Assembly: GCA_035292585.1 (NCBI GenBank)
Contig: DATDPU010000033.1
Coordinates: 9,691 to 73,690, forward strand
Reading direction: 5' to 3'
Length of the DNA stretch: 64,000 bases
From: Anaerolineae bacterium
GTDB taxonomy: Bacteria; Chloroflexota; Anaerolineae; Fen-1058
Below are positions 7,652-60,760 of the stretch, in pieces. The translations under genes were made by a program, and so were the position numbers. The notes under the pieces are model-generated. The model searched no databases and had not been told where the DNA came from. It saw only the letters and a list, made by a program, of their open reading frames with translations. Position 1 is the first letter of the stretch. Each line of letters starts with the position of its first letter.

Positions 7652-7770
7652 GAATGTAGAATGTAGAATGTAGAATGTAGAATGTAGAATGTAGAATGTG
7701 GAATGTGGAATGTGGAATGTGGAAAAGCAGTCATTTCATCATTCGGCATTCTGCCTTCTACATTTCAGAG
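7652..7770. repeat. heptanucleotide tandem array (GAATGTA x6, GAATGTG x4) followed by a partial inverted copy
   Basis: Direct repeats seen in the sequence, in the ccmH-ccmG intergenic region. GCATTCTGCCTTCTACATTTC downstream is the inverted complement, giving hairpin potential. Confidence 0.8.
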
Positions 7771-8262: not shown

Positions 8263-10322
8263 CGCCCCGCCTCGCTTACGACGACGCGCGTGCTCCGCGC
8301 CCGAACTGGAACGGTCGCGGCCATGCCGCTCGGCCACATGGCCAGCAGCGTGCCGATCACCAGCAGCACACTGCCGATCCACAGCCAGTTCACCAGCGGG
8401 TTGATGAATATCTTCAGCGTGCCGAAGCCGCCTTCTTCGCCCAAGAATAGGATATACAGATCTTCGGCCAGCGTCGAGCGGAGCGCGGGCGGGAGCAGGC
8501 CGCCGCCTTGCTGGAAGGTCTCGCGGTACGGCGTCATGGCTTCCGGCGGGCCGCCGGCCACCGACACCAGCACGTGACCGACGAAGACCGATTTGTCCGG
8601 CTCGGCTTCCGGAACGTAAAACTCCGAGCCTTGATAAGTGATGGTGTAATCGCCGAGCGTGATCGCTTCGCCGGCGCGCACCGCACGCTGCGTCTCTTGC
8701 TGGAACATCATCGTGCCGACCACGCCGATGCCCATCAGAATCACGCCCAGATGGACGACGTAGCCGCCATAGCGCCGGCGGTTGCGCGCGATCAGCCGGC
8801 TGAGCGCGGTGAAGGCCGACTCGCCGCCCAGCTTCATGCGCGCCCGGACGCCGCGCGTGAACTCTTCCAACGTGATCAGGCCCGCATAGGTAATGACGCC
8901 GAAGCCGAGCAAAGCGCCCAACGCGCGAAAGCCGGCTGCAAACAGCACACCCACCACCACCCCGGCAATCAAGCCCGAGCGCCAGGTCATACGCCCCAAC
9001 GCCTGCGGCGACGACTTGCGCCAGGCCAGCAGCGGCCCGATGCCCATCAGCAGCACGAGCGCCGTCACCTGCGGGCCGATCAACTGATTGAAGGTCGGTG
9101 GCCTGACCATGAGCTCTTCGCCGACGAGCAATTCCGAGAACATCGAATAGTACGTGCCGAGGAAGACGGTGAACGTCACGGTCAGGAACAGGAAGTTGTT
9201 CATCACAAAGGCGGATTCGCGCGACCAGGGCGATTCCAGCCGGTTATCGCTTTTTAGATAATTCCAACGCCAGACCACCAATGCCGCTGAGCCCACGAGG
9301 ATCAGCGCAACGAAGCCGAGGAAGGGTGCGCCTAACGACGAGCGGGCGAAGGAATGAACCGACGAGATCACACCGGTGCGCGTGACGAACGTGCCCAGCA
9401 CCATCAGCGAGAAGGTGAGGATGATCAAGATCATGTTCCAGACTTTGAACATCCCGCGCTTCTCTTGGATCATCACCGAGTGCAGGAAAGCCGTCGCGGT
9501 CAGCCAGGGCAACAGCGCGGAGTTCTCGACCGGGTCCCAACCCCAGTAGCCGCCCCAGCCCAGCACATCGTACGCCCAGCGCCCGCCCAGCAATAGGCCC
9601 AGCGACAGGAATAGCCATGCGACCAGCATCCAGCGGCGCGTGGCTTTGATCCAGGCCGCGTCGGAAGCGGTCGAGCCGCCGAACAACGCCGCCATCCCAA
9701 ACGCATACGGGATCGCCAGCCCGACGAAGCCCAGGTACAGCATCGGCGGGTGGATGATCATGCCGGGGTGGCGCAGCAGCGGGTTGAGGCCCTGCCCATC
9801 GGCCGGCGTGAACGCTTGCGCGCCGGCCGGCTGGAAGACGGCCGCGCCGATCTGCCCATCCAGCCCCAGCCACAGCCGCGCGAAAGGATTGGCGAAGAAC
9901 AAGGTCAGGAACACGAAGAACAACTGCGTACCGAGCGCGACGACGATCACCCACGGCTGCAACTCGCGGTTGCCGCGCCACTCTTTGACGAACAGGAAGA
10001 AGATGTAAATCGAGAGCAGCCAGCCGAAGAATAAAATCGATCCATTTTGCCCACCCCATAACGAGGTGAACTTGAGGATATCCGGCGTGGCCCGGCTGCT
10101 GACGCGATAAGTATATTCCAGGTTGAAGTTGTTGCCGAGATTGGAGCCGATGACGGCCAGGCAGGCGATCGTCAGCAGCGGCGCGACGACGAGTGCAGCG
10201 CGTCTGGCGCTGCTCACCCATTCGGGTCGCTTGTGCCGTGCGCCCTGGAGCGCCGCGCCTACCGCGTAGGCGGCCGCTGTGAAAGCGAGGACAAGCGTGA
10301 TCAGGCCAATGTCAACGATCAC
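8259..10322 (-). CDS. ccmF: cytochrome c-type biogenesis protein CcmF (heme lyase subunit)
   Basis: 687 aa, about 15 TM helices and the WWD motif WGGYWGWDPVENSALLPWL with conserved His residues. Confidence 0.9.
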   Translation of the reverse strand: MIVDIGLITLVLAFTAAAYAVGAALQGARHKRPEWVSSARRAALVVAPLLTIACLAVIGSNLGNNFNLEYTYRVSSRATPDILKFTSLWGGQNGSILFFGWLLSIYIFFLFVKEWRGNRELQPWVIVVALGTQLFFVFLTLFFANPFARLWLGLDGQIGAAVFQPAGAQAFTPADGQGLNPLLRHPGMIIHPPMLYLGFVGLAIPYAFGMAALFGGSTASDAAWIKATRRWMLVAWLFLSLGLLLGGRWAYDVLGWGGYWGWDPVENSALLPWLTATAFLHSVMIQEKRGMFKVWNMILIILTFSLMVLGTFVTRTGVISSVHSFARSSLGAPFLGFVALILVGSAALVVWRWNYLKSDNRLESPWSRESAFVMNNFLFLTVTFTVFLGTYYSMFSELLVGEELMVRPPTFNQLIGPQVTALVLLMGIGPLLAWRKSSPQALGRMTWRSGLIAGVVVGVLFAAGFRALGALLGFGVITYAGLITLEEFTRGVRARMKLGGESAFTALSRLIARNRRRYGGYVVHLGVILMGIGVVGTMMFQQETQRAVRAGEAITLGDYTITYQGSEFYVPEAEPDKSVFVGHVLVSVAGGPPEAMTPYRETFQQGGGLLPPALRSTLAEDLYILFLGEEGGFGTLKIFINPLVNWLWIGSVLLVIGTLLAMWPSGMAATVPVRARSTRVVVSEAGR

Positions 10323-10344
10323 GAGACACTCCTCCCAAGAAGTC

Positions 10345-10435
10345 AGGACTTACGCAGTTGGCGCGGCAGTTGCACTGCCGCCGCCTCATCTGCCGCAGTA
10401 CAACTGCGGCAGCAACATGCAGCTGCGTAAGTCCT
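10345..10435. repeat. 91-bp MITE-like element with 16-bp terminal inverted repeats AGGACTTACGCAGTTG (copy A)
   Basis: Seen in the sequence. It is near-identical to 19335-19425 and is the inverted counterpart of 17266-17352. It lies in the ccmF-ccmE intergenic region. Confidence 0.8.
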
Positions 10436-10507
10436 GGAAGTGATACGTGCTGCATGGCTTCACGCGCCTGCGCTCACCCCGCGCGGGCGCCTGCGTCACG
10501 TATCACG

Positions 10508-12027: not shown

Positions 12028-13065
12028 CTAGGTGACGACGATAGGCGTGCCGCCCTCATCGACCAGCACGACCGGCTCGGCATAATCGGTTGCCGGGTGC
12101 GACCAGCGAAAGAACCACAGCGCATCCGCCGGGGTCACGTTGACGCAACCGTGCGAGCGGGGGTGGCCGAAGTCGTTGTGCCAGTACGCGCCGTGAATCG
12201 CCGCGCCGGCCGTTGTGAAGTAGGTGCAAAAGGGCACGCCGGGCAGGTCGTAAAAATCCGAGCGTCCTTCGCCGCCCCGCATGTGGCGCGAGGGTCGCTT
12301 GCGCACCACGCGATGCCGGCCCGCGGGTGTGGTGTAGTTGAGCGTCCCCAGACCTTCGATGGTAAAGTAGGTGCCGGTGGCGCAGATCGTCGAATGCACC
12401 GCGACGCCAGCCTCGTAAGCCGTCACCCGCTGCTGCTGGATGTCTACTTCGACCATTTTGTCTTCCACGTCGGGCGAAAGCGGCGACATCTCGCTCGGCG
12501 GGATCGGGCGAACGTGATCGGCGCGCGCGTAGTGAATCAGCCCCGAAATGAAGTCATCCCTGATCCGATACCACCACACGCCCCGTGGGTCGCGCTGGGC
12601 GTCGATGATGAGGTGAACCGAAGCGTAATACAGGCGATAGGTGCGCCGCGCATCGGAATTGGGACGGGCACGCGCCTCGGTGAAGGGCACGCTGATCTGT
12701 CCCCAGAAGCCCTGCGGCGGCACAGCGCGCACGACCCAGCGCTGCCGTTCGTCGCGCACGGGTTGAACGTACGACGAGTACACCCAGCCGGTGCGGATGC
12801 GAAACCAGCGCGAGTTGTGCTTCGCCAGCCCGACCGTATCGGCTTCCTCGAAGATCGGCACGATCATATCGCGCTGCAAAGCGCCGCTGACCTCGCTCTC
12901 CGGATCGGGCGCGGCATAAATCCTCACCCGGGGCTGCGTGACGCGACCCAGTGTATCGGGCAGCGGCAGCCAGTCGCCCTGAGCGGCGATGGGCGATCCC
13001 AGCCAGGGCGCGATCAGACCGGTCCCGGCCAGCTGGAGGAAGGTGCGTCGGTCGAGCGACTGCAT
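12028..13065 (-). CDS. L,D-transpeptidase (YkuD family) with Tat signal
   Basis: RRTFLQLAG twin-arginine motif and the C-terminal catalytic HGCVNV (His/Cys) motif of the YkuD domain. Confidence 0.8.
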   Translation of the reverse strand: MQSLDRRTFLQLAGTGLIAPWLGSPIAAQGDWLPLPDTLGRVTQPRVRIYAAPDPESEVSGALQRDMIVPIFEEADTVGLAKHNSRWFRIRTGWVYSSYVQPVRDERQRWVVRAVPPQGFWGQISVPFTEARARPNSDARRTYRLYYASVHLIIDAQRDPRGVWWYRIRDDFISGLIHYARADHVRPIPPSEMSPLSPDVEDKMVEVDIQQQRVTAYEAGVAVHSTICATGTYFTIEGLGTLNYTTPAGRHRVVRKRPSRHMRGGEGRSDFYDLPGVPFCTYFTTAGAAIHGAYWHNDFGHPRSHGCVNVTPADALWFFRWSHPATDYAEPVVLVDEGGTPIVVT

Positions 13066-13084: not shown

Positions 13085-13215
13085 TTTTAGAAGTTCAGGC
13101 AGCGGTTGTACGGCTGTCCATGCGCCGCCGCTGCACTGCGGCGCGAACCGACTGAAGTTCAGGCAGCAGTTGCACTGCTGCCCGGCTCCGCAGTGCAACT
13201 ACAGCGCGAACTTAC
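13085..13215. repeat. GC-rich hairpin repeat with direct duplication (GAAGTTCAGGCAGC...) and GCAGTTGCACTGC core
   Basis: Two about 45-bp direct repeats, each containing the GCAG(T/C)TG(C/T)ACTGC hairpin core shared with elements at 10345, 17266, 27718, 42496, 46335 and 49990. Confidence 0.6.
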
Positions 13216-16463: not shown

Positions 16464-17240
16464 ATGAAACGCGCGCGTCTTTGGGTAGGGGCAGTGCTGC
16501 TGATCGGTTTGATGTTCGGCGCCTGGCCGGCGGCGGCGGCGGACAGTGTGTCGGTTGGCATCTACAGCATCGCCGCATGCAAAGATGTGTCAACGGTGAC
16601 GGTCAACGGATCGTCCACCTATTCAAACAATCGACTCGACGTGAGCCTCTATCATAAGAATGACAAAGGCCAGGATGTGCTGCTCAAGCAGGTCTTTTCA
16701 TCTGCGTTCGGAGCGGGCCAGTTCATGTTGGCGGTGACCGTGCCTTACACCAACACAGCCGCGGCCGAAGGTGAAGCGCTACGTGTGGAGGTGCAGGCGC
16801 AGCGCTTGAGCGGCAACACCTATGTGGACGTGGGCAATCAGGTGGTGCAGAACGTGACCGTGGCGGATAGGAACTGCTTCACCAAGTGCAGTGTCACGGT
16901 CGACGCCACCGATACAGCGCCGGCTGCCGGCACGCTCACGCTGCGCACCCACTTCGGTGAGTGGTTCCGGCCGGAAGGTCGTTTGCAGGGCGCCATGCCC
17001 GTCAGCGCCGGGAAGAAGGCGCGCGTAGTGTTCGTCGGCGTTCCGTGTAATTGGCCGGTGCGCGTCTGGTACTATCCCAAAACTGGCGATAAGACCCCGA
17101 AGCTGCTGCCGGCGCAATATTGGCCGAACGAATACCAGGCGAACCAGCTGAACGGGACCAATCCTTACACGACTTCATTCGCTAAGGGCCTGAAGCCGAC
17201 TCATCCACTCGAAAGCGACGATCCATTCGTCGTGAAGTGA
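16464..17240 (+). CDS. secreted hypothetical protein (signal peptide, beta-rich)
   Basis: ATG at 16464 preceded by AGGAGG, an N-terminal signal peptide ending in AAADS, and no recognisable catalytic motif. Confidence 0.6.
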   Translation: MKRARLWVGAVLLIGLMFGAWPAAAADSVSVGIYSIAACKDVSTVTVNGSSTYSNNRLDVSLYHKNDKGQDVLLKQVFSSAFGAGQFMLAVTVPYTNTAAAEGEALRVEVQAQRLSGNTYVDVGNQVVQNVTVADRNCFTKCSVTVDATDTAPAAGTLTLRTHFGEWFRPEGRLQGAMPVSAGKKARVVFVGVPCNWPVRVWYYPKTGDKTPKLLPAQYWPNEYQANQLNGTNPYTTSFAKGLKPTHPLESDDPFVVK

Positions 17241-17265
17241 ATGGATAGCTGCTTCTCTATAGACC

Positions 17266-17352
17266 AGGACTTACGCAGTTGCATGTTGCTGCCGCAGTTG
17301 TACGGCAGATGGGGCGGCGGCAGTGCAACTGCCGCACCAACTGCGTAAGTCC
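17266..17352. repeat. 91-bp MITE-like element (copy C, inverted orientation relative to copies A and B)
   Basis: Same AGGACTTACGCAGTTG termini. The internal sequence is the reverse complement of copy A with a few mismatches. Confidence 0.8.
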
Positions 17353-17412
17353 TATAAACACAAAACTCCCGCCCTTGTGTGGAGGACGGGAGTTTGCTTT
17401 TATAGGTGCTCG

Positions 17413-17637
17413 ACTAGTACCCCGACCGCCTCATTCTGCGGGGTTCGGACGGCACAACCCTCTTCGCTGCGCTCGTGGGCAGGCCGCCGCCCTCTTTAGA
17501 AGGCAATGAAAGGCGGCGGCTGGCACTGCCGTCCGCCGCAGTGCTGGCCGCCGCCCTCTTATAAGAAGGCAGTGAAAGGCGGCGGTCATGCGGCAGGAAC
17601 TATGCAACTTCAAGTTGTCGAAGTACTAGCCTGAAAA
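17413..17637. repeat. GC-rich hairpin element family E, long copy with duplicated internal hairpin
   Basis: Shares the ACTAGTACCCCGACCGCCTCATTCTGCGGGGT...GGCGGCGGTCATGCGGCAGGAACTATGCAACTTCAAGTTGTCGAAGTACTA ends with 42496-42648. It contains two GGCCGCCGCCCTC...GAAAGGCGGCGGC hairpins. Confidence 0.75.
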
Positions 17638-17752
17638 ACACGGCTCTTGACACAGAATGACCTTGATCTTGACAGGCGTATTGTGAGTAGATTGTGAGCA
17701 GTTGAGCCGAGTTTCTCTAATTTGACATCGCTTCAGAAAGGGGGCAATCAAC

Positions 17753-19207
17753 ATGGAACGCCATTTTCGACACAAGGCACTGCGTGTTGGCATAACTCTA
17801 CTCGTCGGCGTGAGTTTTTTAGTGTTCGCGATGCTGCTGCTTCGAGCAAACTCGATTGTTCAAGCCACGGGTATCAAATCTTCACAAACGATTGGTAGCC
17901 AGGTTAGCGACATAGCCAATCCAGCCTGTGAAATGACATCCACTGTACTGGCCGCGTATCAGGTCTGGCATGGGTTGACACAGACTCACCAGCAGCCGCC
18001 GCCCTATCTTTCCATCGATCCCGACGTGATCTCCAGACACATTCGATCGGCTCAGGCGCAGTGTATTGATGGGTTCGTGGTGGACTGGTACGGGCCGCCC
18101 ACCGGTCTGCCAAATGACGAGCGAGGTTACATGGATCAAGCGACGGCTGAACTTCTACGCCAGTCGGCGGATCGTGGATTCAAAGTCGCCTTGATGTATG
18201 ACGAGGGGGCGCTCTCAAGTGTAACGGCCAATACCACAACACGGGTGATCAGCGATCTTCTTTACGCCAGACAATATTTCACCCTGTCGAGTTATCTCAC
18301 GATCTCCGGGCGCCCGGCTCTCTTTATCTTCCCCTATGACAATGTTGACCCTCATATCGACTGGTCAACAGTCCGCCAACAGTTGGGCATCTCCTTCACC
18401 CTGCTCGATAAAGATCCAGACCCGAACCAACTCGCACACGATGCTTTGTTCGATGGGTTTTACGCTTGGGTGTATTCACCTTCCTGGCCGACGAGCACTC
18501 TGGACTGGGGCGAGGATTACTTGAAATGGTTCTATCCGGCAATGAAAACATCGCCTTATGTGACTAAGACCGTCGTTGGCGGTGTATGGCCGGGCTTCGA
18601 CGATAGCGGGGCTGCGTGGGGGCAAGGTCGCTATATCTCACGGCGCTGCGGAGCAACCTGGCTCGATACCTGGAACCTGGCCAAGCAATATCAGCCTCCC
18701 TTGGTGTTGATCGGGACCTGGAATGACTTCGAAGAAGGCACAGACATTGAGTACGGCATCCTTCCAAAGCCAGCATGGCAGGAAGACTTCGATCCCATTC
18801 AAAGGACCTGGATGACTCCGACGGCGAGATGGGAAGACGTTCCCGGGCCTACAGCCATCTTGCGTGAAAACAACCCTGCCGAATCCTTTGGCAAGGTGGA
18901 ATCGGAGGTCATCACGGCGAATGTAGATCTTTATCCCCTGCTACGGGTCAACGTCACAGCCGTTGACGCAGACGCCAGTTACACCGTCCAGATTCTGGAT
19001 AAGCGCACGGACATCGCAACAGATGTGCTCAAAGAGATCACCGCGCCCGGCAGGCACATCGTCAACCTCGCTCAACAAATGGGGTGGCAAGGCCCGCAAT
19101 CCTTCACGCTCAACATCTGGATCGGCGGCGAGGGAAAAACCGCCACATTCGATCGTGTGAGTATTGAGGCGTGTTACTACATCTACCTACCCGCCGTTAT
19201 CAGGTGA
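17753..19207 (+). CDS. secreted/membrane-anchored glycoside hydrolase, GH99/GH71-like (tentative family)
   Basis: N-terminal TM/signal, DGFVVDWYG and IGTWNDFEEGTDIE motifs resembling GH99 endo-mannosidase-type (NEWHEGTQIE) catalytic regions. The gene lies in a markedly lower-GC segment. Confidence 0.5.
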   Translation: MERHFRHKALRVGITLLVGVSFLVFAMLLLRANSIVQATGIKSSQTIGSQVSDIANPACEMTSTVLAAYQVWHGLTQTHQQPPPYLSIDPDVISRHIRSAQAQCIDGFVVDWYGPPTGLPNDERGYMDQATAELLRQSADRGFKVALMYDEGALSSVTANTTTRVISDLLYARQYFTLSSYLTISGRPALFIFPYDNVDPHIDWSTVRQQLGISFTLLDKDPDPNQLAHDALFDGFYAWVYSPSWPTSTLDWGEDYLKWFYPAMKTSPYVTKTVVGGVWPGFDDSGAAWGQGRYISRRCGATWLDTWNLAKQYQPPLVLIGTWNDFEEGTDIEYGILPKPAWQEDFDPIQRTWMTPTARWEDVPGPTAILRENNPAESFGKVESEVITANVDLYPLLRVNVTAVDADASYTVQILDKRTDIATDVLKEITAPGRHIVNLAQQMGWQGPQSFTLNIWIGGEGKTATFDRVSIEACYYIYLPAVIR

Positions 19208-19334
19208 GGCAAATCCACTACACGTGACCCATTGTTACCGAAAACACACGGCGACGCTCAAGTGAATGTCTGCTTGGCTCCGAATAGAGCCAAGCAGTTT
19301 CTTGTTTGAGATAACTGTTCTGTGTCTTTTGGAC

Positions 19335-19425
19335 AGGACTTACGCAGTTGGCGCGGCAGTTGCACTGCCGCCGCCTCAGCTGCCGCAGTACAACTGCGGC
19401 AGCAACATGCAGCTGCGTAAGTCCT
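19335..19425. repeat. 91-bp MITE-like element (copy B)
   Basis: One mismatch relative to copy A. It lies immediately 3' of the low-GC glycoside hydrolase gene. Confidence 0.8.
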
Positions 19426-19568
19426 GTTGGATTCTAGTTCTGGTCACAGTTTTTGTCCAACCGGTCGCCAATTGAGCCTTGCATCATTACTTGCATCTCC
19501 GCCCTAACCGGTTATACTACCTCCCGGCAACTTCGATTTTCCGTGCAACTCGATCCAGGAGACATGCA

Positions 19569-21788
19569 ATGTCGTCCTGCCCCTCGTGCGGGCGCGATGT
19601 CGGTTCGCACGTTACCTGTCCCCACTGTGGCGCGAACCTTAAACGCCGCCTGACCATCAGCCTGTTCGGCCTGCTCGCGATCCTGCTGGCGGTCGGCGGG
19701 CTGGGGCTGTTGTGGTACGTCTCCGTCAATACGGCGCTCCCCACGATCCGCATTGGCCAGATTCAGGCGGCGCAGAACTATGCTTACGTTCGCCTCGACG
19801 GCGTCGTCAAGCGCAGCCCGCGTTTCAACCCCGATTCCGAAGCGCTCACGTTTTGGATCGACGACGGCAGCGGGCAGATGCTCGTGTCCGCGTTCCGCTC
19901 GGACGCGCGCGCGTTGATCGCCGCCGATCGCGTGCCGGCGCTGGGCGATCGTATCTCGGTCGCGGGCACGTTGCGCGTGCGCGACGATACACCGTCCTTG
20001 ACGCTCAACTCGCCGGATGCGCTGACGCTGTCGCGCGCGATCGATGCCGCGCAGGCGCGTGAGCTCGGCGCGCTGTCGGCGGCCGATGCCTTCACCGCCG
20101 TCACCGTGCGCGGGCAGGTGCGCGCCGTGCGCGAGCCGCCATCTGCGGGCGGCCTGCGCTTGCTCACGATCCGCGACGCGACGGGTGAAATCGATGTGGC
20201 GATCAGCGCCGACATGGCAAGCTGGGGCGCGCCCGCTCCCGAAGTGCAGACCGGCGCTTCGATCGAGGTGACCGGCGTGGTCACGCTGTACGAAGACGAG
20301 CCGCAGCTCACGCTGACACGCGGCGATGGCTTAGCGCAGCTGAGTGAGCCGATCGAGATCGCGCAGCTCACGCCGATCCGGGGATTGGGCGACGATGACC
20401 TCAGCCGCTGGGTGCGGGTTCAGGGCACCATCGCCAAAATTGCGCCGTTCTCCGCCGGCGTGAAGTTCACGCTCAACGACGTGCAGGGCCAGGACCTCAT
20501 TCTGCTGCTGTGGCAAGATGTCTTCGAAGCGCTGCCGGATAGCGCCGACTGGCAAATCGGCGCCGAGGTGGCGGCGCAGGGGCAGCTGAATTCGTTCCGG
20601 GGTGAATTGGAGCTGGTGCCGGAGGTCGCGCTCGACGTCGCGATCCTGAATCGCGCCATCGTCGAAGCGCCGCCTACGCTCAACCTGACCGGCATCGGCA
20701 CGATCACCCAAGAAGACCTGGGCCAGATGGTGTTCATCAGCGGGACGATCGAGAGCGCCGATCGGTTTACCAGCGGCGTGCGCTTCCGGGTGGAGGATCA
20801 CACCGGTTCGATCCTGCTGGTGCTATTCAGTAACGTGTATGAACAGATTGAAACCGGCGACCGTTTGGAAGATGGCGTGAGCGTCTCGGCGCTGGGTCGG
20901 GTGAGCGAATTCAACGGTGCGCTGGAGATCGTTCCGCCGAACGGCGCAAGTGTGCGGGTCTTGCTGGATACTGAGATCGCCCAGGTCACACCCACGCCGC
21001 CGCCGGCCCCGACAGCCATCCCCCTGCCCACGCTCACGCCCGGCAACGTGACGACTGGCACGTTTCAACCGACGCCTCTACCGAGTTTGACCGGCACGCC
21101 CTCGCTGACGCCCTTGCCCGATTTGACCGGCGCGCCAGCACCGACGCCGCTGCCCGACCTGACCGCCACGGCTGCGCTGACCCCTGCCGCCGGCGAGGTG
21201 ATGACAATCGGCTCGCTCGATGCCTCGCGGATCGGGCAGCAGGTGACAGTGCGCGGCCAGGTGATCTCGGCATCCAGCTTCTCGGCCGGGTTCCGCTTTA
21301 CGCTGAACGACAACTCCGGTTCGATCCAGCTGGTCTTGTTCGACGGTCGGTACCGCGAACTCACAAATCGCGCGGAGCTGAATCTCGGCGCGCAAGTCAG
21401 CGTCAGGGCGATGCTGGCCGAGTTCAACGGCGCATTGGAACTCCAACCAGCCGTCGGCAGCGACGTCAGCATCGAGCAACCCGGCTCATCGTCGATCGTC
21501 AAGACGCGCGCGATCAACACGCTGTCCACGGCCGACGTGGGCACCCTCGCCGCCGTCATCGGCGACGTGTTGCGCGTGGAAGGTTTCTCGTCGGGCATCA
21601 GCGTGTTCGTCAACGACGGCACAGGCGAGCTGCGCATCGTCATCTTCAACAACGTGTTGAACTACGTTCCCAACGCGCCCGCGCTGCAGGCCGGCGCGAA
21701 GGTGCGTGTGACGGGTCGCGTCGACGAGTTCAACGGTGCGCTCGAACTGGTGCCGGCGTTGGGTTACGATGTGGCGGTGAATCCGTGA
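19569..21788 (+). CDS. membrane protein with N-terminal zinc ribbon and six tandem OB-fold (tRNA_anti-like) repeats
   Basis: ATG 19569 with an AGGAGA Shine-Dalgarno; CPSCG...CPHCG zinc ribbon; one TM helix; six about 100-aa repeats each with the V.V.G.V....F..G..F.L.D..G.I.LVLF pattern; and a Pro/Thr-rich linker (PTPLPSLTGTPSLTPLPDLTG...). Confidence 0.65.
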   Translation: MSSCPSCGRDVGSHVTCPHCGANLKRRLTISLFGLLAILLAVGGLGLLWYVSVNTALPTIRIGQIQAAQNYAYVRLDGVVKRSPRFNPDSEALTFWIDDGSGQMLVSAFRSDARALIAADRVPALGDRISVAGTLRVRDDTPSLTLNSPDALTLSRAIDAAQARELGALSAADAFTAVTVRGQVRAVREPPSAGGLRLLTIRDATGEIDVAISADMASWGAPAPEVQTGASIEVTGVVTLYEDEPQLTLTRGDGLAQLSEPIEIAQLTPIRGLGDDDLSRWVRVQGTIAKIAPFSAGVKFTLNDVQGQDLILLLWQDVFEALPDSADWQIGAEVAAQGQLNSFRGELELVPEVALDVAILNRAIVEAPPTLNLTGIGTITQEDLGQMVFISGTIESADRFTSGVRFRVEDHTGSILLVLFSNVYEQIETGDRLEDGVSVSALGRVSEFNGALEIVPPNGASVRVLLDTEIAQVTPTPPPAPTAIPLPTLTPGNVTTGTFQPTPLPSLTGTPSLTPLPDLTGAPAPTPLPDLTATAALTPAAGEVMTIGSLDASRIGQQVTVRGQVISASSFSAGFRFTLNDNSGSIQLVLFDGRYRELTNRAELNLGAQVSVRAMLAEFNGALELQPAVGSDVSIEQPGSSSIVKTRAINTLSTADVGTLAAVIGDVLRVEGFSSGISVFVNDGTGELRIVIFNNVLNYVPNAPALQAGAKVRVTGRVDEFNGALELVPALGYDVAVNP

Positions 21789-21864: not shown

Positions 21865-23184
21865 ATGGACACACTCATCCTGATCGGCCTGGCGGTGCTG
21901 GGCGCGGTGGCGTCAGCGGGGCTGGCGCTGATCCCGGCGTTGCACATCTACAACGTCGCCGGGCTGCTGATCCTCGTCGCCGGTTCGCTGTCATCTATCC
22001 TCAACCTCGATCAACTAGCGCTGCTGTTGCTCGGCATGGTCGTCGGCTACTCGATGCTGAACACGATCCCGGCGACATTCCTGGCCGCGCCGGACGAGTC
22101 GGCGGCGTTCATCGTGCTGCCCGCGCAGAAGTGGCTGCTGCAGCGGCGCGGTTACGAAGCGGTCGTCCTCACCGGCGTCGGCGGGTTAGGCGGGCTGGCG
22201 GTTGTCGTCGCGCTCAGCCCGTTTGCCGGCGAAGCCGCGCGCATCCTGCAAGCGATCGTCGCGCCGCACCTCGGCTGGATCCTGCTGGCCGTCAGCGCCT
22301 TCATGCTGATGTCGGAGTGGCCCAAAGCGGGCGAGCGCGGCCGGACGCGCATCGGGCGTTTCCTCGCCGCGTGGACCGGGTTGGGCGCCGGGATTCTCAC
22401 CTTCTTTTTGTCCGGCCTGCTCGGCTTCATCATCATCTATCGCAGCGTCGTGCCGACCGAGGTCGCGTTTCAGAATTTGCTGCCGGCGTTCCTCGGCTTG
22501 TTTGCCGTGCCCATGGTCCTGGCGAACTTCATCATGGGCACGCGCATTCCTGAGCAATACCTGTCCACCTCGCTCGACGTGTCTCCGTCCCACTTGCTGC
22601 GCGGCATCGCTTCGGGCACGCTAGGCGGGTTGTTCGCCGCGTTCTTCCCGGTGGTGACCGGCGGCGTCGGTGGGTTCCTCGCCGCGCATGCGACGGCGCA
22701 ACGCGACGACCGCACGTTCATTCTCTCGCAAGGCGCTTCGAAATCGGTGTACTACGTCGGCGGCTTTCTGTTGTTCTTCGTGCCGGGCCTGCACCTGGCG
22801 CGCGGCGGCATGGCGGCGATGCTCAGCACGATTTACACGCCGGCGACGCCGTTGCTGTACTTTACCGCCGTGGCGGCCATCGCGGTGAGCGGGGCGGTTT
22901 CGTTCTTGCTGTTGATCGCGTTGAGCCGCCTGGCGATCCGCGTGGTCGAGCGCGTTCATTACCGCGTGATTAACGCCGCGACGCTGGCGATCCTGGTCAC
23001 GCTGGTGGCTGCGCTGACTGGTCCCGGCGGGTTGCTGATCATGCTGGCCGCAACGGGCATCGGCCTGATCCCGACGCTGTTCGGCTCGCGGCGCATGAAC
23101 TGCCTGGGGGTGTTGCTGCTCCCGATCACACTCAACCTGCTGGGACTGGGGCCGTCGGTGGCAAGGCTGCTGGGACTGATCTGA
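21865..23184 (+). CDS. polytopic membrane protein, possibly TctA/DUF112-family transporter subunit (tentative)
   Basis: About 12 predicted TM helices and Gly-rich helices. The family call is weak and is pattern resemblance only. Confidence 0.4.
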   Translation: MDTLILIGLAVLGAVASAGLALIPALHIYNVAGLLILVAGSLSSILNLDQLALLLLGMVVGYSMLNTIPATFLAAPDESAAFIVLPAQKWLLQRRGYEAVVLTGVGGLGGLAVVVALSPFAGEAARILQAIVAPHLGWILLAVSAFMLMSEWPKAGERGRTRIGRFLAAWTGLGAGILTFFLSGLLGFIIIYRSVVPTEVAFQNLLPAFLGLFAVPMVLANFIMGTRIPEQYLSTSLDVSPSHLLRGIASGTLGGLFAAFFPVVTGGVGGFLAAHATAQRDDRTFILSQGASKSVYYVGGFLLFFVPGLHLARGGMAAMLSTIYTPATPLLYFTAVAAIAVSGAVSFLLLIALSRLAIRVVERVHYRVINAATLAILVTLVAALTGPGGLLIMLAATGIGLIPTLFGSRRMNCLGVLLLPITLNLLGLGPSVARLLGLI

Positions 23185-23249
23185 ATGTAGAATGAAGAAT
23201 GAGGAATGAGGAATGAAGAATGAGGAATGAGGAATGCAGAATGCAGAAA
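23183..23249. repeat. heptamer tandem array GAATGNA x9, upstream of the four-helix-bundle gene
   Basis: Seen in the sequence. It has the same GAATGTA unit as the array at 7652. Confidence 0.8.
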
Positions 23250-23630
23250 GGGGGAAATGTGGCTAGCAAAGCGCCGCGCAATATTCAAGAGCGAACATTT
23301 GAATTCGGCCTCCGGATTGTGAGACTGGTCGATCGACTGCCGAGGACGCTATCGGCGACAGAAATCGGACGGCAGATGTTGCGCTCCGGCACATCGGTCG
23401 GCGCGAATATGGAGGAGGCGAAGGGCGCGGAAAGTCGACGTGACTTCATCCACAAGACCAGTACGGCATACAAAGAGGCGCGCGAAACTTTTTATTGGTT
23501 GAGCCTGATCGATGCTGCCGTTCTTTGTCGTGACCAAGAAGTTCTTTCGCTTCGTCAAGAATGCGATGAAGTTATCCGTATCCTCCACACCATCTTACGC
23601 AAGGCACGCTCATCACAGCAAGCGGCGTAA
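23241..23630 (+). CDS. four-helix-bundle protein (TIGR02436-type, so-called 23S rRNA intervening-sequence protein family)
   Basis: About 125 aa with the characteristic FEFGLRIVRL...LPR...IGRQMLRSGTSVGANMEEA...EA..YWL helical pattern. The start is uncertain because the track ORF begins inside the heptamer array. Confidence 0.7.
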   Translation: MQKGGNVASKAPRNIQERTFEFGLRIVRLVDRLPRTLSATEIGRQMLRSGTSVGANMEEAKGAESRRDFIHKTSTAYKEARETFYWLSLIDAAVLCRDQEVLSLRQECDEVIRILHTILRKARSSQQAA

Positions 23631-23633
23631 TTT

Positions 23634-23685
23634 TCTTCATTCTCAATTCTTCATTCTCAATTCTTAATTCTACATTCTGCATTGA
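23634..23685. repeat. inverted heptamer array (reverse complement of GAATGAA/GAATTGA units) downstream of the four-helix-bundle gene
   Basis: The reverse complement reads GAATGTA GAATTAA GAATTGA GAATGAA GAATTGA GAATGAA. It forms a long inverted repeat with 23183-23249 across the gene. Confidence 0.8.
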
Positions 23686-27652: not shown

Positions 27653-27717
27653 ACTTCCTCCCTACGACAAAGTTGAGCGCTTGCAGTGCGGCGAGTGCTT
27701 CGACAATCTAAAGTTGC

Positions 27718-27790
27718 CTAGTTCCCGCCGCAGTTGCACTGCCGTCCGAACCCCGCATAATTAAGTGGTCGGGGTACTAATAATCAGTCC
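27718..27790. repeat. truncated inverted copy of the GC-rich hairpin element family E
   Basis: Contains CGCAGTTGCACTGCCGTCC and the reverse complement of the ACTAGTACCCCGACC end. Confidence 0.6.
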
Positions 27791-27986: not shown

Positions 27987-28805
27987 ACTTCCTCAGCGAA
28001 CCGTCTCGCATACCGATCGAACACCGCGTACCCGATCACCAGCATCGCCAGCGCCGTGATCGCCGTGCGCAGGAAGAAGTCCGCGCCGATGGTGTGCCCC
28101 CAGTACAACACATCGCGATACGAGGAAATGATCGAGGCCATCGGGTTGACGATGTACACCAGCCGGCGCAGGTCGAACGCAGCGCCGAGCAGGGTCGCCG
28201 TTTGCGGCACAGTCTCGATCGGGTACACGATCGGCGTGAGGAAGAACCACGCCAGCATCACGACTTCCATGATGATCTGGGTATCGCGATAGAACACGTT
28301 GACGGTAGACAAGATCAGCCCGATGCCGACGGTGAAGATCACCTGCACCAGCAAAACCACCGGCAGCCAGATGATCAGCCACACTTGCCCGGTGAGCGGC
28401 ACACCCGATAGCCAGGCCAGCGCGAAGAAGACCGGCAGCGCGATCATGAAGTTGATCATGTTCGCGATCACCACGGCGACCGGCAGGGCCGCGCGCGGGA
28501 AGTACACTTTCTTGATCAGATGCGCGTTGTTGACGATGCTGCCCGTCGCGCCGATGACCGAGGCCGAGAAGAAGTTCCAGGCCAGGATGCCGATCAACAC
28601 CGAGACGTGATAGGCGGGCTGGCGGTTCTGCGCCGCCATCACCGTGAACACGATCGTCAACACCAACATCATCAGCAGCGGGTTAAGCCAGGACCAGGCG
28701 ATGCCCAAAGCCGAATTCTTATAGCGCACCTTCAGGTCGCGCTCGACCAGGTTGCGAATCAGCTCGCGGTAACTCCACAGCTCGCGCAGCCTAGCCCACA
28801 TCATG
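27983..28805 (-). CDS. ABC-2 type polysaccharide/teichoic-acid exporter permease (Wzm/TagG/KpsM-like)
   Basis: Start MMWARLRELWSYRELIRNLVERDLKVRYKNSALG is the canonical ABC-2 N-terminus, followed by 6 TM helices. The track ORF upstream of 28805 is translation of the 15-bp repeat. No ATPase gene is adjacent. Confidence 0.8.
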
Positions 28806-30218
28806 CCCCCTCGTAGGAGGCATCTCCAGATGCCGACCCTCCGGATGCCGACCCTCCGGATGCCGACCCTCCAGATGCCGATCCTCCAGATGCCGACCCT
28901 CCGGATGCCAACCCTCCAGATGCCGACCCTCCGGATGCCGACTCTCCAGATGCCGACTCTCCAGGTGCCGACTCTCCAGATGCCGACCGAACCCAAGTTC
29001 CTGCAGCGCCTGCGTGCGCTCGCCGGCGCGGCGCAGGCGCACGGCGTCATACACGGCCACGATGCGGCGAGCGGCATCCTCCCACGCGAACATCGCCTGG
29101 GCGCGCGCCCGCAAGCCGGCCGCGGCGCACGCGCGCGCCGACGGAGTGTTCAAGGCGTACAGCAGTTGCTCCGCCAGCGCAGCCGCATCACCCGGTCGCG
29201 CGTAAAAACCGTAATCGTGCAGATATTCGCGATTGATAGGCGTATTGAACGCGATCGTGGGCAGTCCGGTTGCCATATAGTTCAAGACCTTGCCGTTCGC
29301 CTCGGTGGCCGACAGCTTGGGCGCCACGGCCACGTCGCCCAGCCGCAGGTAGCGCGGCGCGTCTTCGTACAACACGCGACCGACGAACGTAGTGTGCGCG
29401 CTCAGACCGCGCGCTTCCGCCAGCGCTCGATACAGCGGCATGCCGGGGTAACCCATGATTAGAAAGTGCGTGTTGGGGCGCTGCCGGATCACTTGCTCGG
29501 CCGCTTCGATCAACAGGTCCGTCCCCTGGTACGGCGCGAGCAGGCCCAGGTACACCACCAGCTCGCGGTCAGCCGGCACGCCCAGATACGAGCGGATCGC
29601 GCTCAATTCGATACGGTCGGCTTCGGTGCGCGGGCGGAAGAAAGCCGTGTCCACGCAATCGGGCAACGGGATCACCCGTTCCGGATCGACGCCGAACGTG
29701 TCGCGCAGCAGAGCAACCGCTGTGCGCGAGCTGGTCAGGATCGCGCGCGGCCGATGATCGATGCGGCGCTCCAGCCGGCGCACGATCGCGTGAGCCGGGC
29801 CGGCCGGGTTCAGGAAGTGATGATCGATCATTTCGCCGGTCAGGCTGCCTTGAAAATCGAACACGAGCGGCGCGCGACTGATCCAGCTAAGCGCCGAACC
29901 GATGAGCGCGCCTTCGTGCAGGTGCGCGTGAATGATGTGCGGCTTGAAACGCAGCGCCGTCTTGAGCGCGGTCCAGGACAACAATACATCGAAGGCGATC
30001 TTATGCCGCGAGGAGCCGACTTCGTAGTCGGCGTGCCACGGCGTCGGCGCGGTGCGGATGATTTCCAGATCGGGCAGGCTCCGGCCTTTGTAATAGGTCA
30101 CGATCTGCACGCGCTGGCCGTGCGCTTGCAAGGTGCGCGCTTCTTCAAGAATTCGAACGTGGCACCCGTAGTCGGAAAAGAACGACGTGGGCGCGATCAT
30201 GAGGATCCGGTAGGGCAT
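28791..30218 (-). CDS. glycosyltransferase family 4 (GT-B, group 1)
   Basis: Start MPYRILMIAPTSFF (ATG 30218). GT4 pattern with a C-terminal EX7E-like region. The last about 60 codons of the ORF are the 15-bp tandem repeat, so the true C-terminus is uncertain. Confidence 0.75.
   Translation of the reverse strand: MPYRILMIAPTSFFSDYGCHVRILEEARTLQAHGQRVQIVTYYKGRSLPDLEIIRTAPTPWHADYEVGSSRHKIAFDVLLSWTALKTALRFKPHIIHAHLHEGALIGSALSWISRAPLVFDFQGSLTGEMIDHHFLNPAGPAHAIVRRLERRIDHRPRAILTSSRTAVALLRDTFGVDPERVIPLPDCVDTAFFRPRTEADRIELSAIRSYLGVPADRELVVYLGLLAPYQGTDLLIEAAEQVIRQRPNTHFLIMGYPGMPLYRALAEARGLSAHTTFVGRVLYEDAPRYLRLGDVAVAPKLSATEANGKVLNYMATGLPTIAFNTPINREYLHDYGFYARPGDAAALAEQLLYALNTPSARACAAAGLRARAQAMFAWEDAARRIVAVYDAVRLRRAGERTQALQELGFGRHLESRHLESRHLESRHPEGRHLEGWHPEGRHLEDRHLEGRHPEGRHPEGRHLEMPPTRGHDVG
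28817..28990. repeat. 15-bp tandem repeat (ATGCCGACCCTCCAG-type, about 11 copies)
   Basis: Seen in the sequence. It is translatable in frame on both strands: RHLES/RHPEG repeats at the C-terminus of the GT4 ORF, and VGIWR repeats upstream of the permease. Confidence 0.85.
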
Positions 30219-30235
30219 GGTGGTCACGGAGAGAA

Positions 30236-30350
30236 TGGGTAGATTGGTAGTTGGTAGGTTGGTAGTAGGTAGACAGGTATCCAAGTAACCAATTACCCAT
30301 CTACCAATTCCCCTGCTACCTGCTTACCTGCTACCTGCTACCTGTTTACG
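30236..30350. repeat. hairpin-forming heptamer arrays (GGTAGNT units facing CTACCTG units)
   Basis: Seen in the sequence between the GT4 start and the GIY-YIG stop. The last GIY-YIG codons (KQVAGSR) are encoded by the array. Confidence 0.75.
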
Positions 30351-42427: not shown

Positions 42428-42495
42428 GTGTAGCTCCATCAGCCGGCCGGCAAGCGCGTGGAACCCGGCCGGTCTATCTTCTACCTCTACCCTAC

Positions 42496-42648
42496 TACTA
42501 CCCCGACCGCCTCATTCTGCGGGGTTGGGACGGCAGTTGCACTGCCGTCCGCCGCAGTTCTGGCCGCCGCCCGCCCTCCTAAACTGCAAATGAGGGCGGC
42601 GGTCATGCGGCGGGAACTATGCAATTTCAAGTTGTCGAAGTACTACAC
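42496..42648. repeat. GC-rich hairpin element family E, short copy
   Basis: Shares both ends with 17413-17637 and contains GGACGGCAGTTGCACTGCCGTCC plus a GCCGCCCGCCCTCC...GAGGGCGGCGG hairpin. It sits between the permease start and the TrkA stop. Confidence 0.75.
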
Positions 42649-46285: not shown

Positions 46286-46334
46286 CCTCCAGTTCGACGC
46301 TGGCCGCAGGTCTTAGCGCAGCACCCCTCGCTGT

Positions 46335-46410
46335 TCGGGCAGCAGTTGCACTGCTGCCGCCCGCCCCCCTATAATTGCAATGAGGGGCGGCTGAACTGCG
46401 GCGGAAATAG
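46335..46410. repeat. GC-rich hairpin element (GCAGTTGCACTGC core plus GCCGCCCGCCCCCC...GAGGGGCGGC hairpin)
   Basis: Immediately upstream of hutU. Related to family E and to 49990-50075. Confidence 0.6.
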
Positions 46411-60758: not shown

Positions 60759-60760
60759 TT

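What the first reader, a model, noticed from the sequence alone, without database searches (positions are those of the whole stretch)
17266..19425. Low-GC glycoside hydrolase gene bracketed by oppositely oriented copies of the 91-bp element
The GH99/GH71-like hydrolase gene (17753-19207) and its flanks are clearly more AT-rich than the rest of the window. On the left it is bounded by element copy C (inverted) plus a 225-bp family-E hairpin element, and on the right by element copy B (direct). This configuration resembles a cassette mobilised or captured between inverted repeat elements, that is, a horizontally acquired carbohydrate-active gene.
Basis: partly seen in the sequence, partly recalled or inferred. 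Interest (0 to 1): 0.6.

Follow-up and report, generated by a model that had tools for sequence, protein, structure and literature searches.

The report
Acquired glycosidase gene flanked by MITEs
A sugar-cleaving enzyme gene of foreign base composition sits where six related bacteria have other genes or nothing, and the repeats on either side are ordinary miniature transposons that each landed there separately, so this is routine gene gain, not a new mobile cassette.

Summary
The GH71/GH99-like gene (17753-19207) has 54.5% GC and GC3 0.62, against about 0.80-0.88 GC3 in neighbouring genes. It is flanked by oppositely oriented copies of a 91-93-bp repeat and by a 216-bp repeat.

Supported: the gene is an insertion. 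Six syntenic relatives share parts of PIG-L / hyp258 / OB-fold / TctA / YdjM and none has the gene. Two join hyp258 directly to the OB-fold gene (18 bp and 379 bp). Its closest homologs (61-64% identity) lie on 51-57% GC contigs in other contexts.

Not supported: mobilisation or capture between the repeats. The 93-bp repeat is a MITE of an IS701-family insertion sequence, with the terminus CAGGACTTACGCA published for ISPlag1. A 1,108-bp relative encodes an IS701 transposase. In 41 of 79 family members from many phyla the element has a perfect 5-bp target duplication. Here each copy has its own duplication (B TTGGA/TTGGA; C TAGAC/TAAAC), and the outer flanks of the pair do not match. The 216-bp element has its own 4-bp duplication (CTAG). 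The repeats therefore inserted separately into AT-rich spacers. Two of three copies flanking one gene has a chance probability of about 0.07-0.10.

Verdict: ordinary; new members of known kinds.

The parts
17753..19207 (+). GH71/GH99-clan glycoside hydrolase gene (484 aa). It has an N-terminal transmembrane helix, a (beta/alpha)8 catalytic domain (about aa 60-335) and a C-terminal beta-sandwich (about aa 340-472). It is the acquired gene.
   Evidence: Pfam GH71 and GH99 both just above their cut-offs. PDB sequence match to the GH99 enzyme MANEA, with motif TWNDFEEGTDIE aligned to SFNEWHEGTQIE. AlphaFold model pLDDT 83.6. Foldseek top hits are GH99 4ad0 (E 5.6e-14) and GH71 9fnf (E 2e-12). GC3 0.619 and atypical codon usage.
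17241..19568 (.). The whole variable segment between the hyp258 stop codon and the OB-fold gene's ATG (2,328 bp). It holds the GH gene, its flanking AT-rich DNA and three MITEs. The last 80 bp or so (from about 19490) is conserved backbone promoter DNA of the OB-fold gene.
   Evidence: The same interval is 18 bp in L131 and 379 bp in L139. It holds other genes in L128, L130 and L138. A TTGCAT...TATACT stretch upstream of the OB-fold ATG is shared with L139 and L140.
17265..17354 (-). MITE copy C (90 bp; a 93-bp family member with a 3-bp deletion), IS701-type termini, flanked by TAGAC (17260-17264) and TAAAC (17355-17359).
   Evidence: Identical, apart from the deletion, to copies in metagenome contigs L132/L133 that have their own TAATG duplication.
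17363..17395 (.). Terminator-like hairpin with T-runs on both strands, between MITE C and element E. MITE C therefore lies between the hyp258 stop codon and this hairpin.
   Evidence: (13-pair stem) and the sequence.
17413..17628 (.). Family-E MITE (copy E1). Core TACCCCGAC...GTCGAAGTA, flanked by a 4-bp duplication CTAG/CTAG. The internal hairpin module is duplicated relative to copy E2.
   Evidence: Copy E2 (about 42498-42641) is flanked by CTAC/CTAC.
19270..19307 (+). Intrinsic-terminator-like hairpin plus T-run downstream of the GH gene.
   Evidence: 11-pair stem, followed by TTTCTTGTTT.
19334..19426 (+). MITE copy B (93 bp), flanked by a perfect 5-bp duplication TTGGA (19329-19333 and 19427-19431). 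It matches copy A at 92 of 93 positions.
   Evidence: An independent JGI contig (L002) spans GH, MITE B and the OB-fold gene at 100% identity.
10344..10436 (+). MITE copy A (93 bp), between the genes matching the CcmF and CcmE cytochrome c maturation families, flanked by GAAGT/GAAGT. It shows that the element inserts in unrelated backbone spacers.
16464..17240 (+). Left backbone gene (hyp258, no Pfam match), conserved in relatives at 63-80% identity.
19569..21788 (+). Right backbone gene (multi-OB-fold protein, 739 aa), conserved in relatives at 65-69% identity. It was used to find the syntenic loci.

Best explanation
A single glycoside-hydrolase gene of the GH71/GH99 clan, with its own terminator, entered this high-GC Anaerolineae genome by horizontal transfer. 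It lies in a spacer (hyp258 / OB-fold gene) whose content differs in every relative examined. The donor was probably a Chloroflexota lineage of about 51-57% GC. The integration mechanism left no recognisable trace.

Three non-autonomous miniature transposons then inserted one by one into the AT-rich non-coding DNA around the gene. Two are 93-bp MITEs mobilised in trans by an IS701-family DDE transposase. One is a 216-bp MITE of a second family. Each made its own target-site duplication.

Shown: the atypical composition; the gene's absence in syntenic relatives; the MITE identity; the individual duplications; and the AT-rich target preference of the family. Inferred: the direction of the event (gain rather than loss), the donor lineage, and the order 'gene first, MITEs later'.
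For: Composition: GC3 0.619 against 0.72-0.88 in neighbours; codon-usage outlier.

Synteny: L128, L130, L131, L138, L139 and L140 share backbone genes at 58-87% amino-acid identity on 62.5-66% GC DNA. None has the GH gene or the MITEs. The site is empty in L131 (18 bp) and L139 (379 bp).

Homologs: the best are 61-64% identical, on contigs of 51-57% GC, with different neighbours and no MITEs. A 53%-identical homolog in another high-GC contig (L006) is also a low-GC gene in yet another context.

MITE identity: the terminal repeat CAGGACTTACGCA equals that of ISPlag1, an IS701-group element (PMC2464740). L108:123-1230 is a 1,108-bp element with the same ends and a 344-aa transposase that scores 368 bits on NCBIfam transpos_IS701_2. 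Of 79 element pairs from many phyla, 41 have a perfect 5-bp duplication at the same offset; most other offset and length combinations give at most 6, apart from the nested 3-bp window.

Separate insertion here: A GAAGT/GAAGT, B TTGGA/TTGGA, C TAGAC/TAAAC, E1 CTAG/CTAG.

Target preference: duplications average 30-34% GC and flanks 36-45% GC, in loci of 47-60% GC.

Multi-copy status: further copies 95-100% identical occur in other contexts, and independent assemblies break inside E and B.

Not an assembly chimera: JGI contig L002 independently joins GH, MITE B and the OB-fold gene at 100% identity.
Against: The donor is unidentified: the top homologs are unnamed metagenome contigs. The relatives are fairly distant (OB-fold protein 65-69% identical), so loss of an ancestral gene in several lineages cannot be formally excluded. 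The left junction (hyp258 - C - E1 - GH) is supported by one assembly only. Both 93-bp copies lie close to the two island/backbone junctions, which is mildly suggestive although not significant (P about 0.07-0.10). No transposase is present in the window. Whether this genome encodes the partner IS701 element could not be checked.
Confidence: 0.75

Rival explanations
1. The two inverted 93-bp elements and the DNA between them form a composite, MITE-bounded transposon, or a segment captured by recombination between MITE copies, and that unit delivered the GH gene.
For: Two copies of one element in opposite orientation lie within about 130-400 bp of the gene ends and near both island/backbone junctions. 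MITE-bounded composite units are known elsewhere (from my own knowledge: integron mobilisation units, TIME-COMPs).
Against: B has a perfect duplication of its own and C a 4/5 one. The outer flanks of the pair, TAGAC and TTGGA, do not match. A chance 5/5 match is about 1 in 1,000, and a match of 4/5 or better about 1.6%. Recombination through the MITEs would instead give mismatched flanks. The unit occurs at one locus only. The GH homolog contigs have no such MITEs. A and B match at 92 of 93 positions, which suggests B was copied within this genome. The bracketing is not significant.
Confidence: 0.04
2. The GH gene is ancestral at this locus and was lost or replaced in the relatives. Its low GC reflects gene-specific constraints rather than foreign origin.
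For: The spacer is variable in all relatives, with Pyr_redox, HepT/MNT or hyp415 genes coming and going, so losses clearly occur there. A homolog in L006 is likewise low-GC inside a high-GC contig, which could mean the family is intrinsically GC-poor.
Against: None of six relatives has the gene at this site. The low GC is concentrated at third codon positions (0.62 against about 0.8), with atypical synonymous codon choice; that points to mutational history rather than protein constraint. The AT-rich non-coding flanks share the contrast. The nearest homologs sit in genomes whose overall GC matches the gene.
Confidence: 0.12
3. Metagenome mis-assembly. A low-GC fragment from another organism was joined into this contig through the shared repeats.
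For: The segment is bounded by multi-copy repeats. Two other assemblies break inside those repeats. The left junction rests on one assembly.
Against: JGI contig L002, from a different sample and assembly, runs at 100% identity from inside E1 through GH and MITE B into 600 bp of the OB-fold gene, so the gene is physically linked to the backbone. By inference, the 93-bp repeat is shorter than the k=141 implied by the contig name.
Confidence: 0.04

Closest known systems
IS701-family insertion sequences with CAGGACTTACGCA termini, such as ISPlag1 of Planktothrix (Christiansen et al. 2008, PMC2464740), and their MITE derivatives
   Same: The first 13 nt of the terminal inverted repeat are identical. 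A 1,108-bp relative with the same ends encodes an IS701-type DDE transposase. The elements are short and non-coding, have terminal inverted repeats and target duplications, are multi-copy, and lie in intergenic AT-rich sites.
   Different: The duplication is 5 bp, whereas 4 bp was reported as typical for IS701 (PMC2266710). From memory, 5 bp is the ISAba11-type subgroup value; I could not verify that here. The 93-bp internal sequence (two GC-rich hairpins) is specific to this lineage. No autonomous partner was seen in the window.
MITE-bounded composite mobile units (integron mobilisation units, Tn3-derived TIME-COMPs; named from my own knowledge)
   Same: A gene lies between two inverted copies of a miniature element.
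   Different: Such units share one target duplication at their outer ends and recur as a unit. Here each element has its own duplication, the outer flanks differ, and the unit is unique.
GH99 endo-alpha-1,2-mannosidases/mannanases and GH71 alpha-1,3-glucanases
   Same: (beta/alpha)8 fold with best structural matches to both families. Both Pfam models are passed. The acidic motif N-D-F-E-E-G-T aligns to the GH99 motif N-E-W-H-E-G-T, and D325 and E328 are invariant in 32 homologs.
   Different: Only 14-20% identity to solved members, with marginal Pfam scores. The first motif acid is Asp rather than Glu. The protein has an extra N-terminal membrane anchor. It also has a C-terminal beta-sandwich, which in relatives is shared with a neighbouring HTH-membrane protein. 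Substrate unknown.
Small genomic islets in variable intergenic 'hotspots' of otherwise syntenic bacterial genomes
   Same: A conserved backbone, with different cargo or an empty site at the same junction in relatives, and a compositional contrast.
   Different: No integrase, tRNA or att-like repeat marks the insertion.

Membership tests
MITE (miniature inverted-repeat transposable element) | Short (under about 300-500 bp), non-coding, with terminal inverted repeats | tested here: met
   93 bp. The termini CAGGACTTACGCAGTT / AGCTGCGTAAGTCCTG pair over about 15 nt. No ORF attributable to the element: the only ORFs of 60 aa or more over copies C and B start outside them or run past their ends.
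MITE (miniature inverted-repeat transposable element) | Target-site duplication of fixed length at each copy | tested here: met
   5 bp: A GAAGT/GAAGT, B TTGGA/TTGGA, C TAGAC/TAAAC. Across the family, 41 of 79 are perfect and 50 of 79 have at most 1 mismatch at this length and offset; most other combinations give at most 6 perfect matches, apart from the nested 3-bp window.
MITE (miniature inverted-repeat transposable element) | Multiple copies at unrelated sites | tested here: met
   3 copies in the window, plus 4 more that are 95-100% identical in other metagenome contexts. Assemblies break inside them.
MITE (miniature inverted-repeat transposable element) | An autonomous element with the same termini that encodes the transposase | tested here: met
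   L108:123-1230 (1,108 bp) has the same termini and an IS701_2 transposase scoring 368 bits. ISPlag1 has the same terminal repeat. No such partner was found in this genome; only the window could be searched.
IS701 family (as parent of the 93-bp MITE) | DDE transposase of IS701 type | tested here: met
   NCBIfam NF049921 transpos_IS701_2, E 5.7e-110, above its cut-off of 250; also Pfam DDE_5 and DDE_Tnp_1. This was tested on the related full-length element, not in the window.
IS701 family (as parent of the 93-bp MITE) | 4-bp target duplication, typical of the family (De Palmenaer 2008) | tested here: not met
   5 bp here and across the sampled relatives. The 2008 survey reports exactly 4 bp for almost all members and three clusters of end signatures. 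This therefore looks like a distinct subgroup.
Composite (MITE-bounded) transposon carrying the GH gene | One target duplication shared by the outer ends of the pair, and none around the individual elements | tested here: not met
   The outer flanks are TAGAC and TTGGA. Each element has its own matching flanks.
Composite (MITE-bounded) transposon carrying the GH gene | The whole unit recurs at other sites or in other genomes | tested here: not met
   The exact protein occurs on only 4 contigs, all the same locus. The homolog contigs lack the MITEs.
Horizontally acquired gene / genomic islet | Compositional and codon-usage contrast with the host | tested here: met
   GC3 0.619 against 0.72-0.88; log-likelihood -1.22 against -0.80 to -1.00.
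Horizontally acquired gene / genomic islet | Absent at the orthologous site in relatives (empty site) | tested here: met
   6 of 6 syntenic relatives lack it. L131 and L139 have hyp258 directly followed by the OB-fold gene.
Horizontally acquired gene / genomic islet | Gene phylogeny incongruent with host phylogeny | tested here: inconclusive
   The best hits (61-64%) are on unnamed 51-57% GC contigs with other neighbours. The named hits are all Chloroflexota, apart from one Electrothrix hit. No tree was built.
GH99 / GH71 glycoside hydrolases | Sequence membership (Pfam gathering score) | tested here: met
   GH71 41.6 bits against 34; GH99 39 bits against 33. Both are passed narrowly, so the protein cannot be assigned to one of the two.
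GH99 / GH71 glycoside hydrolases | (beta/alpha)8 catalytic fold | tested here: met
   Model pLDDT 83.6. Foldseek gives 4ad0 (GH99) E 5.6e-14 with target TM-score 0.64, and 9fnf (GH71) E 2e-12.
GH99 / GH71 glycoside hydrolases | Catalytic acidic pair (E333/E336 in the Bacteroides xylanisolvens GH99 enzyme, BxGH99) | tested here: inconclusive
   The motif NDFEEG aligns to NEWHEG, and D325 and E328 are invariant in 32 homologs. The first residue is Asp rather than Glu. The residue correspondence is inferred from the motif; no activity was tested.

The most novel reading that the evidence does not exclude
The pair of near-intact IS701-type MITEs could still make the GH gene mobilisable in trans as a 2.2-kb MITE-bounded unit. 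More broadly, MITEs with the ultra-conserved YAGGACTTACGCA terminus occur in Chloroflexota, Poribacteria, Cyanobacteria, Armatimonadota and Methanosarcina. They might act as portable ends or homology patches that shuttle single genes such as this hydrolase between genomes. The data show no past movement of the unit, but they cannot exclude future or rare mobilisation.
Probability: 0.04. Interest if true: 0.45.

Novelty: new member of a known kind. Interest (0 to 1): 0.2.

Why it matters
The practical value is for annotation. The '91-bp element' of this window can now be named: it is an IS701-type MITE with a 5-bp target duplication, and its terminus is conserved across bacterial and archaeal phyla. 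Repeats flanking a low-GC gene should not be read as a cassette unless the target duplications say so. The locus is a clear small example of a variable intergenic hotspot in uncultured Anaerolineae. It also shows a membrane-anchored GH71/GH99-clan hydrolase that turns up as a low-GC gene in different contexts in two high-GC Chloroflexota genomes. None of this changes current understanding of gene transfer or transposition.

Tried and rejected
- Rfam scan (gathering threshold) and tRNA scan of the whole window found nothing, so there is no known RNA family or tRNA integration site.
- tblastn of the IS701 transposase against the window found no partner element.
- blastn of the two spacers against relatives found no informative homology, so the island ends could not be mapped to the base. 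The conserved OB-fold promoter stretch was only seen by eye.
- Remnants of the genes that fill this site in relatives (Pyr_redox, hyp415, HepT/MNT) were searched for in the window. None were found.
- L134 looked as if two terminal repeats enclosed 3 kb of cargo. It resolved into two unrelated elements, a 112-bp MITE with its own ATCTG duplication and a truncated 76-bp copy.
- L023 (1,449 bp between two terminal repeats, containing a 184-aa ORF that looks like a hexapeptide-repeat protein by eye) has no matching flanks and was not counted as a unit.
- The family-E terminal repeat was searched in all fetched loci. It occurs only in this organism, and its parent insertion-sequence family was not identified.
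- The consensus promoter scan found no sigma-70-type site upstream of the GH gene.
- I tried to verify ISAba11's duplication length from the literature. The papers held do not state it, and PMC3101452 is not held.
Full report
**Source and observation**

The window is part of ENA contig ERZ27254861:k141_3321696 (73.7 kb). NCBI labels the proteins as coming from an 'Anaerolineae bacterium' metagenome-assembled genome. Overall GC is 62.1%.

The ORF at 17753-19207 (+, 484 aa) passes both Pfam Glyco_hydro_71 (41.6 bits against a cut-off of 34) and Glyco_hydro_99 (39 against 33). The 1-kb windows covering it have 55% GC. The gene has GC 0.545 and GC3 0.619, whereas its neighbours have GC3 0.72-0.88. 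Its synonymous-codon log-likelihood under the window's pooled usage is -1.22, against -0.80 to -1.00 for backbone genes. The non-coding pieces around it have 42-50% GC.

The compositional claim is therefore correct, but the region is not unique. The block 57770-63807 and the small gene 23241-23630 are equally or more atypical.

**The repeats**

The motif AGGACTTACGCAGTT occurs six times, as the two ends of three elements, where 0.04 is expected by chance. The elements are:
- A at 10345-10435 (+)
- C at 17266-17353 (-)
- B at 19335-19425 (+)

Aligning the copies with their flanks shows that similarity starts one base further out on each side. The unit is therefore 93 bp, CAGGACTT...AAGTCCTG. 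A and B match at 92 of 93 positions. C belongs to a slightly different subtype and has a 3-bp deletion. Each strand folds into a long outer stem with two GC-rich internal hairpins (z-scores -5.7 to -8.9), as expected for an element with inverted termini.

The 'family-E' element is 17413-17628. Shorter relatives lie at about 42494-42645 and, inverted, at 27694-27779.

**What the 93-bp element is**

The hits came from Chloroflexota, Poribacteria, Armatimonadota, Cyanobacteria, Acidobacteriota, Planctomycetota, Methanosarcina and others.

Pairing forward and reverse termini gave 79 elements, mostly 54-260 bp long. I tested flank identity at several offsets and lengths. Only one combination, together with the 3-bp window nested inside it, stood out: a 5-bp repeat lying one base outside AGGACTT. 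It was perfect in 41 of 79 elements and had at most one mismatch in 50 of 79. Most other combinations gave at most 6 perfect matches. That is the signature of transposition with a 5-bp target-site duplication.

One pair, L108:123-1230 (1,108 bp), encloses a 344-aa DDE transposase. It scores 368 bits on NCBIfam transpos_IS701_2, above the cut-off of 250.

The literature search found the same terminus, CAGGACTTACGCAAGCACGC..., described as the 29-bp terminal inverted repeat of ISPlag1. ISPlag1 is a 1,306-bp IS701-group element of Planktothrix (PMC2464740).

The 93-bp element is therefore a MITE of an IS701-family insertion sequence. The 2008 survey of the family reports 4-bp duplications as typical and three clusters of end signatures (PMC2266710). 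The 5-bp value places these elements in a distinct subgroup. From memory this is the ISAba11-like subgroup; I could not verify that from the papers held.

**The decisive test of the cassette idea**

In the window each copy has its own duplication:
- A: GAAGT / GAAGT
- B: TTGGA / TTGGA
- C: TAGAC / TAAAC on the + strand, 4 of 5 matching

The outer flanks of the C...B pair (TAGAC on the left, TTGGA on the right) do not match.

A composite transposon would carry one duplication at its outer ends. Integration by recombination through the MITEs would give mismatched flanks at each element. What is seen instead is that, with B removed, the sequence ...gtcttTTGGAttcta... is continuous, and the same holds for C. 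The elements were therefore inserted singly into DNA that was already joined.

Element E1 is likewise flanked by CTAG/CTAG, and E2 by CTAC/CTAC. The non-palindromic CTAC shows that these are direct repeats and not part of the inverted terminus.

Further evidence points the same way:
- Additional copies of the same 93-bp subtype, 95-100% identical, lie in unrelated metagenome contexts with their own duplications, for example TAATG/TAATG.
- Two independent assemblies of this locus break inside E and B, as multi-copy repeats would cause.
- Across the family, the insertion sites are AT-rich. Duplications average 30-34% GC and the flanks 36-45% GC, in loci of 47-60% GC. The AT-rich spacers around a low-GC gene are therefore natural targets.
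- A placement simulation gives P of about 0.07-0.10 for two of three copies flanking one gene.
- An apparent 3-kb 'cargo' between two termini in L134 turned out to be two unrelated elements.

**Is the gene acquired?**

I used the downstream OB-fold protein to find relatives and fetched six syntenic loci. Each shares some or all of PIG-L, hyp258, OB-fold, TctA and YdjM at 58-87% amino-acid identity, on DNA of 62.5-66% GC.

None has the GH gene or the MITEs. The content of the site in each relative is:

| Locus | Between hyp258 (or PIG-L) and the OB-fold gene |
|---|---|
| L131 | 18 bp from the hyp258 stop to the OB-fold ATG |
| L139 | 379 bp of non-coding DNA; its partial hyp258 is the closest (80% identity) |
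| L140 | PIG-L is followed directly by the OB-fold gene |
| L130 | Pyr_redox and hyp415 genes |
| L128, L138 | Pyr_redox and a HepT/MNT toxin-antitoxin pair |

The spacer is therefore a variable hotspot, and the GH gene is specific to this lineage.

The closest GH homologs are only 61-64% identical. They lie on contigs of 51-57% GC with different neighbours. Their own GC3 (0.55-0.69) brackets that of the window's gene. The named hits are Chloroflexota (Caldilineaceae, 'Chloroflexi bacterium'), so nothing indicates a donor from a distant phylum. A 53%-identical homolog in another high-GC contig (L006) is also a low-GC gene, in a third context. That suggests the family moves repeatedly.

Loss from all the relatives cannot be formally excluded. 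It fits poorly with a contrast concentrated at third codon positions and shared by the non-coding flanks.

Mis-assembly is unlikely. A JGI contig from another sample (L002) runs at 100% identity from inside E1 through the gene and MITE B into the OB-fold gene.

**The gene product**

The AlphaFold model (32-sequence alignment, pLDDT 83.6) shows three parts:
- an N-terminal transmembrane helix (residues 2-32)
- a (beta/alpha)8 domain
- a C-terminal beta-sandwich (about residues 340-472)

Foldseek ranks GH99 endo-alpha-mannosidases first (4ad0, E 5.6e-14) and a GH71 enzyme close behind (9fnf, E 2e-12). The GH99 motif NEWHEG aligns to NDFEEG, and D325 and E328 are invariant among 32 homologs. By inference these correspond to the Glu pair named in the PDB variant titles, E333Q and E336Q.

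The protein is best called a membrane-anchored GH71/GH99-clan endo-alpha-glycanase of unknown substrate.

In the closest homolog contigs, the gene is paired with a divergently transcribed HTH-membrane protein. That protein's C-terminal domain is 59% identical to the hydrolase's own C-terminal domain. The partner is absent from the window.

**Local anatomy**

A terminator-like hairpin lies at 17363-17395, so MITE C sits between the hyp258 stop codon and this hairpin. A second terminator-like hairpin with a T-run lies at 19270-19307, after the GH gene. A TTGCAT...TATACT stretch upstream of the OB-fold ATG is shared with L139 and L140. The backbone therefore resumes by about position 19490.

**Verdict**

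'Horizontally acquired' is supported. 'Mobilised or captured between the repeats' is not.

The locus combines two well-known phenomena: a single-gene islet in a variable spacer, and later independent MITE insertions. The interest is low. The useful by-product is a name and a mechanism for the window's commonest repeat.

Noticed in passing
window 23183-23683: A small low-GC gene of the 23S_rRNA_IVP family (23241-23630, GC3 0.56) fills the TctA-YdjM spacer. It is bracketed by inverted tandem arrays of the heptamer GAATGNR (23183-23245 and 23633-23683). Relative L138 has the same gene with similar arrays at the same site. Relatives without the gene (L128, L130) have hairpins built from other heptamer arrays in that spacer. 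A third GAATGNR array lies at 7652-7721.
   Followed up: partly
window 57770-63807: A second, larger low-GC block (GC 0.51-0.58, GC3 0.52-0.64, atypical codon usage). It encodes two SPFH/Band-7 proteins, a protein with a C-terminal GrpE domain and a pentapeptide-repeat protein. It runs to the end of the window.
   Followed up: partly
window 17413-17628, 42494-42645, 27694-27779; also 13085-13215 and 46325-46400: The family-E elements are modular MITEs of 86, 152 and 216 bp with a 4-bp target duplication (CTAG, CTAC). Their GC-rich hairpin modules (for example GGCAG(C)AGTTGCACTGC) recur in the 93-bp MITE and in other intergenic hairpin clusters. The parent insertion-sequence family was not identified, and the terminus was not found in any other fetched locus.
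   Followed up: partly
Genome-contig loci L009-L127: The 13-15-nt terminus YAGGACTTACGCAG is conserved exactly in MITEs of 54-260 bp across very distant phyla, including archaea (Methanosarcina, Methanotrichaceae), Poribacteria, Cyanobacteria, Armatimonadota and Chloroflexota. The 5-bp duplications are consistent throughout.
   Followed up: partly
L004:1452-2354 and L007:346-1224, compared with window 18758-19168: Next to the closest GH homologs lies a divergent gene of about 300 aa, with an HTH-like N-terminus and a hydrophobic segment. Its C-terminal 135 residues or so are 59% identical to the C-terminal beta-sandwich of the hydrolase. This may be a shared ligand-binding module linking a regulator and an enzyme. 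The partner gene is missing in the window.
   Followed up: partly
L006:9402-12536: In another high-GC Chloroflexota contig, the GH homolog (53% identity, GC3 0.63 against about 0.8-0.9 in its neighbours) is flanked by a direct repeat of about 505 bp (9402-9904 and 12028-12536, 92-100% identical). The repeat places the same upstream region in front of two successive low-GC genes.
   Followed up: partly
L138:8182-8565 and L140:4210-4431: Small PDDEXK_3-family genes occupy different spacers of the same syntenic block in two relatives. Like the IVP gene, they come and go between otherwise conserved genes.
   Followed up: no
window 28794-29018; 5561-5639; 6370-6412: A 15-bp tandem array (CTCCRGATGCCGACC, about 13 units) lies at the 3' end of the minus-strand ORF 28791-30284. 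Related GTAGGAGGCATCTCC..GATGCCGAC motifs occur at two other places.
   Followed up: no
window 34967-35440 and 50263-50736: A 474-nt inverted repeat, 80% complementary, with arms about 15 kb apart. These are probably paralogous coding sequences.
   Followed up: no
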